Below, in pieces: positions 3,980-10,316 of a stretch of DNA of 39,558 bases. Each line of letters starts with the position of its first letter. Position 1 is the first letter of the stretch. The translations under genes were made by a program, and so were the position numbers. This stretch comes from an uncultured archaeon (GTDB taxonomy: Archaea > Asgardarchaeota > Lokiarchaeia > Sigyniarchaeales > SOKP01). The DNA is taken from the NCBI GenBank assembly GCA_964525635.1, contig CAZGJX010000028.1, positions 1-39,558 on the forward strand, read 5' to 3'. The notes beneath the pieces were generated by a model. That model was not told the origin of the DNA. It saw only the letters and a list, made by a program, of their open reading frames with translations, and ran no database searches.

Positions 3980-6055
3980 ATGGTCTATTTTTTCGAATTA
4001 ATTAAAAATGGTATGGGTTTTTCAAGAATTGGAAAAATAAAACTTTCTAAGTCATTTAAGAATTCTATGAACACACCAAATATCATTATTCCCTTTAATC
4101 AATTTCTCGCCAATAACGCAGAATTTATCGATTCTTTCGGATGTCAAGAGATTTTTTTAATCACAGAGACAAAATATCTGAAAGATGAGTTTTTAAATAA
4201 AAGATTCATTGATTCTATTTTTATATTTGCATATGATGGGACTTTAAATAGATTTCAAGAAATTTTAGAAGAAAAAAAGCAAATATTTCAGTCTAGTAAT
4301 ATCATTCCAATAATTCCATTCAATATACCAACAACATCAATTAATAAAGAGTTTTCAAATCAAGAAATACAAAAACATTTAGAAAAAGCTGAGAAAATTC
4401 TTTTTGATTACCCAGATATTGATTTTGGAATTTCTATTAAACTTTTTGAATACTCTGAATTATTTAATCTATATATTCCTATAATTAGACACAATTCAAA
4501 TATAAAGATTTTAAATTTCCCAGATCTTTTTCATAATTTAGCTCGTTATCGAAAGATTATCGAATTAATTATCGAAATTAGAGGAAATCTTGATAATAAT
4601 CTAGTTTTAATGGTTTCTGGTAAATTAGTATCAAATTATTTACCAATACTCATTTATTTAGGATTTGATTTGATTGATAGTTCATATCTTTTATCCATAT
4701 CTTTAGAAAATTATTATGATTCTATAGAGTCTTTATTACCAATCTATAAAATGAAATTTCTCCCATGTAATTGTTCATCATGTAATGGAAAGTTAGGGGC
4801 TTTATTAGGAGATAAACACTCAATAGAAAAAATTGACTTGTTATGTTATCATAACCTAATAACAATAAATAATTATATGAAGAAAACTCTCCAATATCTT
4901 CATACTGAAGATATAAGAGCGTTTATTGAAAAAACTTCCTTTAATGATTTGAATTTTATCTCATTATTAAAAATACTGGATAAAAATTATTTTAAGTATA
5001 TAAAAGGTTATACGAAATTAATTCAAAAAAATAAAATAATAAATTGTTTAGGCCCATCATCTTATTATCGCCCTGATTTTGTACATTTTAGAAATAAGGT
5101 AATTAATAATTTTGAACCTGAAAATTGGACAAAATTAATTATAATATTTCCATGTTCAGCAAAAAAACCATATTCTCAATCAAAATCACATCGAATATTT
5201 CAAAAAATAACAAGAAAATATCCTGAATTTCCAACTATTCAGGAAATTATATTAACCTCACCTTTGGGGGCTATTCCAAGACAATTGGAAGATATTTATC
5301 CAGTTAATTCTTATGATATTTCCGTAACTGGGGAATGGAATGAAGAAGAGATTGAGATTGCCTCTGATATGCTTTATAATCTATTAATTAAATATGATAA
5401 AGGGATACCTATAATTTGTCATCTTGATGGAGGATATCTTGAAATAATTGAAGAAGCTAAAAAAAACCTTAATTATAATTTCATATATACAAACATAAAA
5501 GATCATCCGACTTCTGTTGAATCAATGAATTCTCTAAATATATTAATTCAAAAATATATATCTGAATTTATTCCAAAAACTAAGAACTCTGAAGACAGTT
5601 ATTTATCGAATAGTTGGATAAGAAAATTTATAAAGATCATTGATTACCAATTTGGGAAAGGATTTGGGATAAAATTAATATCTAAAAATTTGAAATATAG
5701 AAGAAATAAAAAATATACTAAAATGGAGTTATTTAATTCAGAAACAAAAGAAAAACTTGGAATTTTTGAATCTTCAACGGGAAAAATTAATCTTACTATA
5801 AAAGGTGCTGAAAAAATAGCTTTTATGGATAATTTTTCAAATTACATCATTTTTGATGGTAATCAAATTAAAGGTAATACCTTATTTAGAGTAGGGATAA
5901 TTTATTTTTCTCCAAATTTATTACCTGATGATAATGTTTGTGTTTTTGACAAAGAAAAAAAAAAAGTAATTGCAGTTGGAAATATGATTATTGGTTCTGA
6001 ATATATAAAAAATACTACTTCAGGAAGAGTTGTAAAATTTTATGAAACAAGATAA
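3980..6055 (+). CDS. arcS: Archaeosine synthase subunit alpha (ArcS/TgtA2)
   Basis: TGT-like N-terminus with CxCxxC..H zinc site, PCSAKKPYSQSKSH and TSPLGAIPRQLE..YP...YD motifs, C-terminal PUA-like domain. Overlaps the RaSEA gene. Confidence 0.9.
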   Translation: MVYFFELIKNGMGFSRIGKIKLSKSFKNSMNTPNIIIPFNQFLANNAEFIDSFGCQEIFLITETKYLKDEFLNKRFIDSIFIFAYDGTLNRFQEILEEKKQIFQSSNIIPIIPFNIPTTSINKEFSNQEIQKHLEKAEKILFDYPDIDFGISIKLFEYSELFNLYIPIIRHNSNIKILNFPDLFHNLARYRKIIELIIEIRGNLDNNLVLMVSGKLVSNYLPILIYLGFDLIDSSYLLSISLENYYDSIESLLPIYKMKFLPCNCSSCNGKLGALLGDKHSIEKIDLLCYHNLITINNYMKKTLQYLHTEDIRAFIEKTSFNDLNFISLLKILDKNYFKYIKGYTKLIQKNKIINCLGPSSYYRPDFVHFRNKVINNFEPENWTKLIIIFPCSAKKPYSQSKSHRIFQKITRKYPEFPTIQEIILTSPLGAIPRQLEDIYPVNSYDISVTGEWNEEEIEIASDMLYNLLIKYDKGIPIICHLDGGYLEIIEEAKKNLNYNFIYTNIKDHPTSVESMNSLNILIQKYISEFIPKTKNSEDSYLSNSWIRKFIKIIDYQFGKGFGIKLISKNLKYRRNKKYTKMELFNSETKEKLGIFESSTGKINLTIKGAEKIAFMDNFSNYIIFDGNQIKGNTLFRVGIIYFSPNLLPDDNVCVFDKEKKKVIAVGNMIIGSEYIKNTTSGRVVKFYETR

Positions 6056-7355: not shown

Positions 7356-7604
7356 TTGAATTGGGTTAAATTAGATTTATTTCATTTAGGTATGTCTAAT
7401 AAGAAACATCAAATCTTTAGAGCTACTAAATGGAATAGGAATTTCGAAAAAATATTAAAAAAACCAATTTACAATGAAGAATATAAAAATATTGGCTTTG
7501 TTAAAGATATTTTTGGTCCAATGAAGATGCCTTTTATTTCAATTAAAACAAAACCTAATGAAGAAATAGACTCAAATACCAATTTTTACGTAAAATTTAA
7601 ATGA
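7356..7604 (+). CDS. gar1: H/ACA ribonucleoprotein subunit Gar1
   Basis: IGFVKDIFGPMKMPFISIK motif, ~80 aa. Lies directly upstream of tfb, a common archaeal arrangement. Confidence 0.85.
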   Translation: MNWVKLDLFHLGMSNKKHQIFRATKWNRNFEKILKKPIYNEEYKNIGFVKDIFGPMKMPFISIKTKPNEEIDSNTNFYVKFK

Positions 7605-7647: not shown

Positions 7648-8607
7648 GTGTATCTTATTTCAAGTTGGAAAGAATCAAAATCCGTTTCTGATAATCTTAG
7701 TACAGAAAAGAATATTTGTAATGAGTGTGGAGAAAGCATTTTTTTTGATGAGAATAGAGGATTATTAGTATGTGAGAATTGCGGTTTAGTCCATTTAGAA
7801 AAGTCTATAGATCGAGGGCCTGAGTGGAGAGCTTTTAATTCAGAACAAAAGAAAAAAAGAACAAGAACTGGAGCTCCCATGACTTATATGATCCATGATA
7901 AGGGCTTGAGTACAATGATAGATTGGAAAAATCGCGATATTTATGGGAAAGAAATTCCTGCAAAATTAAGGGGACAAATTCATAGATTAAGGAAATGGCA
8001 GAGTAGAATTAGAGTTTGTGATGCTACAGAAAGAAACCTAACATTTGCTTTGAGTGAACTTGATCGTATGGCATCAAATATGGATCTGCAGAAGAATTTA
8101 AGAGAATGTTCAGCAAAAATCTATAGAAGTGCTGTAGAAAAGCATCTTATTCGAGGTAGAAGTATAGAAGGAGTTGCAGCAGCAAGTTTATATGCCGCTT
8201 GTAGAATGTATAAAGTTCCAAGAACTTTGACTGAAATAGCTGAAATAGCTCGAGTAGATAAAAAAGAGATTGGACGATCTTTTAGATTTATATCAAATGA
8301 ACTTGACTTAAATCTAAATCCAACGAAACCTTTAGATTTTCTCACTAGATTCATTTCAGAATTAGAATTATCTAATGAATGTCATAAAATAGCAAAAAAG
8401 ATAATTAAGATGGCCTCAGAACGTGGTCTGACCTCCGGAAGAGGGCCAACAGGTGTTTGTGCTGCAGCAATTTATGCCGCAACATTAATTGCAAGAGAAC
8501 GGCGAACACAAAAAATAATTGCACAAGTTTCACAAGTTACGGAAGTAACAGTTCGTAATCGTTTCAGTGAACTTGTTGAAAATTTATCTCTCTCTTTAAA
8601 AAGATAA
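7648..8607 (+). CDS. tfb: Transcription initiation factor IIB
   Basis: Zn ribbon CxxC..CxxC, GPEWRAF B-finger, HDKGLST, cyclin folds (RGRSIEGVAAASLY; TEVTVRNRF). Exact start uncertain. Confidence 0.97.
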   Translation: MYLISSWKESKSVSDNLSTEKNICNECGESIFFDENRGLLVCENCGLVHLEKSIDRGPEWRAFNSEQKKKRTRTGAPMTYMIHDKGLSTMIDWKNRDIYGKEIPAKLRGQIHRLRKWQSRIRVCDATERNLTFALSELDRMASNMDLQKNLRECSAKIYRSAVEKHLIRGRSIEGVAAASLYAACRMYKVPRTLTEIAEIARVDKKEIGRSFRFISNELDLNLNPTKPLDFLTRFISELELSNECHKIAKKIIKMASERGLTSGRGPTGVCAAAIYAATLIARERRTQKIIAQVSQVTEVTVRNRFSELVENLSLSLKR

Positions 8608-8771: not shown

Positions 8772-9119
8772 GTGATTTTAATAATTAAAGATATTTTAAG
8801 TCAAAATCAGGTTGTTGACTTTCTTAATAATGTTATTAAAAATTTTCCGAATTTTGCAGCAGGGGTGATTGCTGATTATCATGGCTTTCCAATTGTTTCT
8901 AAAATACCTAATAAATTTCCTTATAAAGAACATGAACTTGCTTTAGAAACAATAGTAAAAAATAGAACTTTTATTGATAAATCAAATTATATCAAAGTAG
9001 AAAGAAGCCTAAATAGAGATGAGACGATAAAACTCCTAATATTGCTTAAAAGGCCAAATAAAAATATTTATGGCTATAAAAGTCTGGAAATGATTATAAA
9101 AAGACAAATGCTCTTTTAA
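8772..9119 (+). CDS. Hypothetical protein, possibly divergent roadblock/profilin-like fold
   Basis: Helix then AAGVIADYHGFPIVS, resembling the roadblock beta-hairpin. Adjacent to a clear roadblock gene. Confidence 0.5.
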   Translation: MILIIKDILSQNQVVDFLNNVIKNFPNFAAGVIADYHGFPIVSKIPNKFPYKEHELALETIVKNRTFIDKSNYIKVERSLNRDETIKLLILLKRPNKNIYGYKSLEMIIKRQMLF

Positions 9120-9346: not shown

Positions 9347-9811
9347 ATGAGTTATGAAGATGAGGTAATGTTAAAGAAAATATTGAATGCAATCATTAAT
9401 AGTGCAGCAGGTGTTAGATATGCAATCATTATTGATGAAACAGGAATAACATTACTTAGTCAATCTAAATTTAGGCTTTCTGATGATATAACTTCGGTCG
9501 AGAAAATTGGCGCTATTGGTGGTGCAGTATTCATGGCTGGTGAAGAACAGGGAATGATTCTTGGATATGGGAATATTGATTTACAAATTACAGAATATAA
9601 TAAAGGAATGATCTTTTCAATGAAAATTGGGGGAGGAGTATTATGTATAGCTACAGAAAAAAATATCAATATAGGATTTATTCGAGCTGTAATGAAGAAA
9701 TGGGCACCTAAACTAGAAAACCTATTGGATCGTTATTTAGAGGTTAGTGAAAATGTAGCGAATAAAGAATTAAAAGAATTATTTAATTCTGATACAGTAA
9801 GTTTTTTCTAA
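9347..9811 (+). CDS. Roadblock/LC7 (MglB/LAMTOR-like) domain protein
   Basis: GVRYAIIIDETGITL..EKIGAIGGAVF..ITEYNKGMIF..GVLCIATE..NIGFIR pattern. Confidence 0.85.
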   Translation: MSYEDEVMLKKILNAIINSAAGVRYAIIIDETGITLLSQSKFRLSDDITSVEKIGAIGGAVFMAGEEQGMILGYGNIDLQITEYNKGMIFSMKIGGGVLCIATEKNINIGFIRAVMKKWAPKLENLLDRYLEVSENVANKELKELFNSDTVSFF

Positions 9812-9984
9812 ACTTTGTTTATATCTTTTTTAAAATAAAATTAATTAGTGATCTTTATTTTTTTGGAGAAATATTAGCGTAAATTCAATTTATGGTAATT
9901 TTTAAATAAATAATATGAAATAAAGATCATATTTCTTTAAAATAATTTATATTTAAAAAGAAAATAATAATAAGATACATAGAC

Positions 9985-10257
9985 TGTTGCCTAAAACACT
10001 AACACAAAATTCTCATTCTAAGGGGATACCTTAAAATCAAATTTGTTCTCTCGTGCTAGGCGTTAACTTCTATGCTTTAAGGGACATAATCTTTCTGCTG
10101 TCTGGGTACTGCCCTAATCTCATCGTACGGAACCATCCTTTTACTTGACTAAGAGCCCATTTGCCAGCAGTGTAAGTTATCGATTATAAAAACTCCAGAT
10201 GTCTGCGTTTCTTTGCACATATAATCATTTGATATCATATATGTCCTCGATAACGCA
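9985..10257 (-). ncRNA. Putative multi-hairpin box H/ACA pseudouridylation guide RNA (or cluster of three)
   Basis: H1 10257-10200: UGCGUU/AACGCA lower stem, pocket AUCGAGG / GCAAAG(A), ACAUAUA/UAUAUGU upper stem, UGA-UAUCAAA-UGA K-loop, ACA 14 nt after the pocket top. H2 10170-10092: CUGCUG/CAGCAG stem followed by AAA. H3 10061-9985: GCCUAG/UUAGGC stem, UGA...AUGAG K-turn-like motif, ACA. Locally GC-richer than flanks, no ORF. Confidence 0.8.
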
Positions 10258-10302
10258 TATATTCCATCATTATTTTCCCAATTTAATTATATAATTGAGA
10301 GA

Positions 10303-10316
10303 TTATAAATGTTTTT
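10303..10316 (-). promoter_or_regulatory. Candidate BRE-TATA promoter for the ncRNA
   Basis: Minus-strand AAAAAC-A-TTTATAA, about 45 nt upstream of hairpin 1. The AT-rich background lowers specificity. Confidence 0.45.

What the first reader, a model, noticed from the sequence alone, without database searches (positions are those of the whole stretch)
10200..10257. H/ACA guide hairpin predicted to pseudouridylate the peptidyl-transferase centre at a site also modified in eukaryotes
Seen: the minus strand folds as UGCGUU-[AUCGAGG]-ACAUAUA-UGAUAUCAAAUGAU-UAUAUGU-[GCAAAG]-A-AACGCA-G-ACA. This gives a lower stem, bipartite pocket, upper stem, K-loop, and an ACA box exactly 14 nt from the pocket top. 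Established: this is the archaeal H/ACA architecture (L7Ae-binding K-loop, 14-16 nt rule). Inference: the pocket reads 5'-(CU)UUGC-U-N-CCUCGAU-3', matching the archaeal 23S segment UUGCUACCUCGAUGUCGG, so the target U corresponds to E. coli position 2496. From memory this aligns with yeast 25S Psi2865 (snR46), which would make it an Asgard counterpart of a eukaryotic snoRNA-guided modification.
Basis: partly seen in the sequence, partly recalled or inferred. Interest (0 to 1): 0.85.

Follow-up and report, generated by a model that had tools for sequence, protein, structure and literature searches.

The report
Three-hairpin pseudouridine guide RNA, Asgard
This hairpin is the first of three in a real, roughly 300-base guide RNA that most likely tells an enzyme to convert one uridine in the ribosome's catalytic centre to pseudouridine; the same guide and site are already known from other archaea, so it is an old shared feature, not a special Asgard-eukaryote link.

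Summary
The hairpin is real and as described. It is motif 1 of an unannotated ~300-nt three-motif box H/ACA RNA (about 10281 to 9977, minus strand). Its stems covary strongly while the pocket stays fixed. RNA contigs cover it, but not the neighbouring genes. Cbf5, Nop10, Gar1 and L7Ae genes are present.

The pocket's best rRNA match is 23S U2496 (E. coli numbering; yeast Psi2865, snR46), with 4+7 Watson-Crick pairs. The host's own 23S segment is unassembled, so a same-genus 23S was used; it reads UU, not UA, at the target.

The novelty is overstated. Pyrococcus Pab40 motif 1 was shown in 2008 to make the equivalent Psi2588, already noted as conserved in eukaryotes. The same three-pocket order occurs in Thermococci, Methanosarcinales and Hadarchaeota, so this is the likely Pab40/Afu4 orthologue, although Rfam HgcG misses it.

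I found two extras undescribed in the papers read: a covarying second K-turn below hairpin 1, and a shift of hairpin 2 from U2586 towards A-loop U2554 within Lokiarchaeia. This scan noted this RNA before on other Asgard DNA (e1-5519169, e1-5448670). No pseudouridine was measured.

The parts
9977..10281 (-). Whole non-coding RNA gene, about 300 nt, three H/ACA motifs on basal stems; ends inferred from conservation
   Evidence: Conserved block in nearly all same-family genomes; RNA contig 9991-10265 with 1 difference
10303..10309 (-). Putative archaeal TATA box about 27-30 nt upstream of the first conserved G (inferred)
   Evidence: Sequence; a T/A-rich box at the same distance in homologues
10200..10257 (-). 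H/ACA motif 1 (the finding): lower stem, pocket, 10-layer GA stem with K-loop, ACA box
10245..10251 (-). Motif 1 5' guide strand; 7 Watson-Crick pairs with 23S 2498-2504
   Evidence: core CGAGG invariant in 26 homologues
10213..10216 (-). Motif 1 3' guide strand; 4 Watson-Crick pairs with 23S 2492-2495
   Evidence: GCA invariant
10224..10237 (-). Apical K-loop of motif 1 (predicted L7Ae site)
   Evidence: both GA dinucleotides invariant in alignment A3
10200..10202 (-). ACA box of motif 1, 14 nt from the pocket top
   Evidence: distance 14 in most genomes, 13-15 in all scored
10263..10275 (-). 5' strand of a second, basal K-turn under motif 1 (C-stem strand, 3-nt bulge, GA, NC-stem strand)
   Evidence: All 7 flanking pairs show two-sided changes; also in Hadarchaeota and most Asgard families read
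10190..10199 (-). 3' strand of the basal K-turn, directly after the ACA box
10092..10170 (-). H/ACA motif 2 with K-turn and ANA (AAA) box; predicted for U2554 (A-loop) and/or U2586
   Evidence: target register not resolved
10086..10187 (-). Basal stem enclosing motif 2 (10187-10182 with 10091-10086); outer closing stem 10279-10276 with 10084-10081
   Evidence: 97% and 87% of cells paired
9985..10061 (-). H/ACA motif 3 with K-turn and ACA box; predicted for helix 69, U1917 (14 nt to ACA) and possibly U1915 (16 nt)
   Evidence: Match to the host's own 23S fragment; numbering; pocket homologous to HgcG motif 3
9977..10075 (-). Basal stem enclosing motif 3 (10075-10070 with 9982-9977), followed by a T-rich tract
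7356..7604 (+). gar1 gene (H/ACA RNP protein), 2.4 kb from the RNA, upstream of tfb
   Evidence: Pfam Gar1 above cut-off; gar1-tfb-roadblock-roadblock-RNA order kept in family f1 only

Best explanation
The hairpin is motif 1 of a three-motif archaeal box H/ACA guide RNA, the Lokiarchaeia orthologue of Pab40/Pf7/Afu4. L7Ae binds the K-loop; Cbf5 binds the ACA box and lower stem, with Nop10 and Gar1. The two pocket strands pair with 23S rRNA 2492-2495 and 2498-2504 and leave U2496-U2497 unpaired, and Cbf5 isomerises U2496 to pseudouridine. Shown here: structure, covariation, complementarity, homology, presence of the protein genes, presence in RNA libraries. Inferred from established H/ACA biochemistry: protein binding and catalysis. 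Not shown: the pseudouridine itself.
For: Geometry matches the productive class (10-layer GA stem, 14 nt to ACA; PMC4652768). Stems covary while the pocket is fixed. U2496 is the top site in four Lokiarchaeia 23S rRNAs; 3 of 2000 shuffled pockets do as well anywhere in 16S+23S. Guide and cognate 23S pair in all 27 genomes where both could be scored, Asgard and non-Asgard. A pattern built on this hairpin retrieves about 48 archaeal-type loci with motif 3 downstream; a Thermococci locus among them hits Rfam HgcG (Pab40) at E 1.3e-14 and two Hadarchaeota loci hit it weakly. Pab40 motif 1 makes the equivalent Psi2588 in vivo and in vitro (PMC2377435). Cbf5, Nop10, Gar1 and L7Ae genes are present. 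RNA contigs from four studies lie on the RNA and none on the flanking genes apart from short low-complexity or partial matches.
Against: The host's own 23S is missing between about 2000 and 2570. The 3' guide duplex is only 4 bp, and 3 bp in some relatives. Several predicted Pyrococcus targets proved unmodified (PMC2377435). The Rfam HgcG model does not detect this RNA directly. RNA evidence is from contigs, which show neither strand nor ends. The equivalence of P. abyssi 2588 to 2496 uses a constant offset taken from papers, not a direct alignment.
Confidence: 0.87

Rival explanations
1. The hairpin binds the 2492-2504 region mainly as a folding chaperone during 50S assembly, with little or no modification.
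For: Short 3' duplex. An extra basal K-turn and a closed multibranch fold suggest a scaffold role. Some eukaryotic snoRNAs such as snR10 have such roles (PMC5699541).
Against: The ACA distance and GA-stem length stay at catalytic values across phyla; the orthologous Pyrococcus motif is catalytically active (PMC2377435).
Confidence: 0.06
2. It is an H/ACA guide, but its main target is another uridine: U2497, a tRNA, or an rRNA site that is missing from the sequences searched.
For: Lokiarchaeia have two adjacent U at 2496-2497. Single archaeal hairpins can have up to 8 targets (PMC11077068). The host's 16S and tRNAs were not fully searched.
Against: No other site came near 11 pairs. The same pocket is kept in lineages with A at 2497. 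Additional targets are not excluded.
Confidence: 0.05
3. A chance AT-rich hairpin, or a terminator for the convergent roadblock gene, with an accidental rRNA match.
For: The genome is 27% G+C and the RNA lies between genes.
Against: Conserved across the phylum and beyond with compensatory changes; three ordered pockets; present in RNA libraries.
Confidence: 0.01

Closest known systems
Pab40 / Pf7 / Pho40 / Afu4 three-motif box H/ACA sRNA (Rfam RF00064 HgcG)
   Same: Three H/ACA motifs in the same order. Motif 1 has the same pocket core and target (P. abyssi Psi2588 = 2496), K-loop and geometry. Motif 2 carries the ACCC strand aimed at 2586. Motif 3 is aimed at helix 69 (PMC2377435).
   Different: Too diverged and AT-rich to score with RF00064. 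It has a second K-turn under motif 1 and basal stems under all motifs; the Rfam model has no pairing under motif 1. Motif 2 has gained complementarity around U2554.
Haloferax volcanii sR-h45
   Same: Its two hairpins correspond to motifs 2 and 3 (Psi2605, which I take to be 2586 by way of H. marismortui 2621; Psi1940/1942 = 1915/1917) (PMC7075261, PMC2584109).
   Different: It lacks motif 1, the hairpin of this finding (PMC2584109).
Yeast snR46 (25S Psi2865)
   Same: Equivalent target position (offset 369).
   Different: Eukaryotic two-hairpin snoRNA without K-turns.
Yeast snR10 (25S Psi2923)
   Same: Equivalent of U2554, the predicted derived target of motif 2.
   Different: Concerns motif 2, not the finding's hairpin; homology untested.

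Membership tests
Archaeal box H/ACA guide RNA | Stem - internal loop - stem hairpin supported by covariation | tested here: met
Archaeal box H/ACA guide RNA | K-turn or K-loop with tandem G.A pairs, GA stem 8-11 layers (10 in crystal structures) | tested here: met
   10 layers; both GA invariant (PMC4652768)
Archaeal box H/ACA guide RNA | ANA box 14-16 nt from the pocket top | tested here: met
   14 nt
Archaeal box H/ACA guide RNA | Bipartite complementarity leaving an unpaired UN in a target RNA | tested here: met
   4+7 pairs around U2496-U2497 in same-genus 23S; host segment unassembled
Archaeal box H/ACA guide RNA | Cbf5, Nop10, Gar1 and L7Ae encoded in the genome | tested here: met
   (cbf5 split by a contig break; L7Ae 132.8 bits against a cut-off of 134.6)
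Archaeal box H/ACA guide RNA | Expressed as a discrete small RNA | tested here: inconclusive
   RNA contigs confined to 9991-10265 in four studies; contigs give no strand or ends
Archaeal box H/ACA guide RNA | Binds Cbf5/L7Ae and produces pseudouridine at the target | not testable with these tools
   Needs Psi mapping or reconstitution
Rfam RF00064 HgcG (Pab40) | Covariance-model score of at least 77 bits | tested here: not met
   No match at this locus; bridging homologues score 62.9, 28.1 and 25 bits. Not filed as an Rfam member.
Pab40/Pf7/Afu4 orthologous group (by function) | Three H/ACA motifs in one RNA, order 2496 - 2586 - helix 69 | tested here: met
   motif 2 is ambiguous between 2586 and 2554
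Eukaryotic snR46 family | Two-hairpin H-box/ACA architecture and sequence homology | not tested
   No snR46 sequence was fetched; no Rfam snoRNA match at this locus; the architecture differs

The most novel reading that the evidence does not exclude
Asgard archaea and Hadarchaeota use an undescribed H/ACA RNP layout in which a second L7Ae-binding K-turn sits directly below the ACA box of motif 1 and folds three guide units into one multibranch scaffold. Within Lokiarchaeia, motif 2 is caught switching from U2586 to the A-loop U2554 (yeast Psi2923), this family being a dual-target intermediate. One RNA would then install up to five pseudouridines at sites that eukaryotes serve with separate snoRNAs.
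Probability: 0.35. Interest if true: 0.62.

Novelty: new variant of a known kind. Interest (0 to 1): 0.4.

Why it matters
I found no paper on Asgard H/ACA guides in the library searched, and Rfam misses this RNA, so it fills an annotation gap. It gives concrete, testable pseudouridine predictions for Asgard ribosomes. Homologues exist in three closed Lokiarchaeia genomes whose sizes fit cultured strains (from memory). It supports the view that Psi2496 and its RNA guide predate the Asgard lineage. The basal K-turn and the retargeting of motif 2 are the parts a specialist would find new.

Tried and rejected
Rfam scan of the locus: only a chance miRNA match. RF00064 against five genomes: nothing real. 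Host 23S target region: not assembled; C41 ends before it and C9 starts after it. Reading the flanking AUGA/CUGA-like words as a C/D-box guide: rejected, since no antisense element is conserved and the words pair as a K-turn with covarying flanks. Pairing of the motif 3 pocket with helix 89 or with 2593-2597: considered, no consistent geometry. Two helices of motif 2 (helices 8 and 11) were mis-specified or misaligned by me; their low scores carry no information. Models R1 and R2 missed the RNA in three closed genomes, but BLAST from a closer homologue found it, so the no-match rows are not absences. A loose motif-3 pattern gave only background. The sigma-70 promoter scan is not applicable. 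The Pab40 sequence was illegible in the supplement. Flanking genes without RNA cover are not evidence that they are silent.

Full report
Observation. It folds better than shuffles (z = -2.56). A genome-wide scan for this grammar gave three sites in 4.45 Mb; only this one has a strong rRNA match. It lies in an intergenic gap between a roadblock-type gene and a zinc-ribbon membrane gene. Rfam reports nothing meaningful.

The unit is larger. A BLAST search of relatives returned a block of about 300 nt in nearly all 36 same-family genomes, well beyond the hairpin. The alignment shows three H/ACA motifs in a row, each ending in an ANA box and each on a basal stem. For the whole structure, 40 of 73 pairs have two-sided changes and 84% of cells pair, against 39-45% for slid controls (two helices of motif 2 were mis-specified by me). 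For motif 1 with its basal stems, 17 of 20 pairs show two-sided changes and 90% of cells pair. Relatedness inflates the shuffle test, so these counts are not P values. The pocket core and the GA dinucleotides are invariant. A TATA-like box lies about 30 nt upstream and a T-rich tract downstream; both are inferred from sequence.

Host. Loci with near-identical sequence come from records titled Promethearchaeota/Promethearchaeia, so the host is a Lokiarchaeia member (inference). Its genome encodes Cbf5 (split by a contig break), Nop10, Gar1 and L7Ae. gar1 lies in this window, 2.4 kb away; that linkage holds only within the family. Metatranscriptome contigs from four studies lie on the RNA, including one 275-nt contig at 9991-10265 with one difference. 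The neighbouring genes have no comparable cover. Contigs give no strand or ends, so this shows presence in RNA libraries, not transcript boundaries.

Target of motif 1. This does not affect pairing, because the second base is the unpaired N. The 5' pocket strand makes 7 Watson-Crick pairs (2498-2504) and the 3' strand 4 (2492-2495). This is the top site in four 23S rRNAs, and 3 of 2000 shuffled pockets do as well anywhere in 16S+23S. Alignment to E. coli rrlB fixes the U at 2496. Guide and cognate rRNA pair in all 27 genomes that could be scored, with ACA distance 13-15. Yeast numbering is offset by 369 at 2457 (PMC11077068) and at 2552 (PMC2584109), so 2496 is 2865, the snR46 site (PMC5699541).

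Comparison with known RNAs. Muller et al. (PMC2377435) showed that Pyrococcus abyssi Pab40 has three motifs. Motif 1 makes Psi2588 (CMCT positive, strongest class in vitro), motif 3 acts on helix 69, and motif 2 of its relatives Afu4 and Pf7 is expected to act at P. abyssi 2678. That position equals H. marismortui 2621 and E. coli 2586 (PMC2584109). The offset is 92, so 2588 is 2496. The authors already list 2588 among sites highly conserved in eukaryotes. A pattern built from this hairpin retrieved about 48 loci with a paired upper stem and motif 3 downstream, from Lokiarchaeia but also Thermococci, Methanosarcinales/ANME-2 and Hadarchaeota; the bacterial hits were unpaired chance matches, bar one probably mis-binned contig. 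The Thermococci locus hits Rfam HgcG (Pab40) at E 1.3e-14, and the HgcG consensus shows the same pocket cores in the same order. The Lokiarchaeia RNA itself does not score with HgcG. I therefore file it as an archaeal H/ACA RNA that works like, and is most likely orthologous to, Pab40, not as an Rfam member. A model of motif 1 finds it in many Asgard families (67 of 151 genomes, a lower bound), and homologues exist in three closed Lokiarchaeia genomes.

What differs. First, a second K-turn sits directly below motif 1: a C-stem, a 3-nt bulge, tandem G.A pairs and an NC-stem whose 3' strand starts right after ACA. All seven flanking pairs covary. It occurs in most Asgard families read and in Hadarchaeota, but not in the Methanosarcinales or Thermococci loci. 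The Rfam model has no such pairing, and I did not find it in the papers read. L7Ae binding there is an inference. Second, motif 2 is ambiguous in this family. One register pairs 7+3-4 bases around A-loop U2554 with a 10-11-layer GA stem but 16-19 nt to the ANA box. The other keeps the ancestral strand for U2586 at 14 nt but usually mispairs next to the target. One sister family keeps the plain 2586 pocket; two genera of another have lost it and show a canonical U2554 guide, 15 nt to ANA in the copy counted. U2554 equals yeast Psi2923 (snR10). My odds for this genome: 2554 alone 0.45, both 0.3, 2586 alone 0.25. Motif 3 matches helix 69 in the host's own 23S fragment, with U1917 at 14 nt and U1915 at 16 nt, like Haloferax sR-h45 stem-loop 2 (PMC7075261).

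Mechanism. Shown: structure, conservation, complementarity, homology, protein genes, presence in RNA libraries. Inferred from established H/ACA biochemistry: L7Ae on the K-loop, Cbf5 on ACA and the lower stem, isomerisation of U2496. Not shown: any pseudouridine. Confidence 0.87.

Verdict. Earlier notes of this scan describe the same three-hairpin RNA and the A-loop target on other Asgard DNA; I reached the Pab40 reading before seeing them and tested it here. The basal K-turn and the retargeting series make it a modest variant. Interest 0.4.

Noticed in passing
window 7356-7604 (+), 7648-8607 (+), 8772-9119 (+), 9347-9811 (+): gar1-tfb followed by two roadblock/LC7-type genes (one Pfam-supported) convergent with the RNA; the order is kept in most same-family genomes.
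   Followed up: partly
L047, L048, L053, L054, L055 just after the 2498-2509 match: 23S rRNA of several family members has 25-35-nt insertions in the hairpin at about E. coli 2530, possibly expansion segments or small introns.
   Followed up: no
L050, L051 near E. coli 2598; L034, L049, L051, L054 upstream of 2480: 23S sequence breaks into unrelated sequence at conserved positions, suggesting rRNA introns or intervening sequences.
   Followed up: no
L292 (G151:C17:42379-42457): A second, solitary copy of motif 3 lies about 590 nt downstream of the full RNA.
   Followed up: partly
L236 (G148): The homologue has motifs 1 and 3 but appears to lack motif 2.
   Followed up: no
L230, L231, L247 (family f18): Motif 2 carries an extra stem-loop inserted in its 3' strand.
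   Followed up: no
L239 with L263 (G062): The motif 2 5' strand and the genome's own A-loop both differ from this family's at the paired position (A2561 to G, U to C), a possible guide-target compensatory change.
   Followed up: partly
23S position 2497 across L033-L058 and L248-L276: U in all Lokiarchaeia read and in several other Asgard families; A in other Asgard families, Hadarchaeota and Euryarchaeota.
   Followed up: partly
L118: A contig in a MAG titled Nanopelagicaceae bacterium carries an RNA nearly identical to the Lokiarchaeia copy in L078: probably mis-binned.
   Followed up: no
   Followed up: no
G000:C185 end and C189 start: cbf5 is split across two contig ends without internal stops, most likely an assembly break.
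   Followed up: no
window 3980-6055 (+): 691-aa protein with DUF5591, TGT and PUA matches, resembling an archaeosine-pathway tRNA-modifying enzyme.
   Followed up: no
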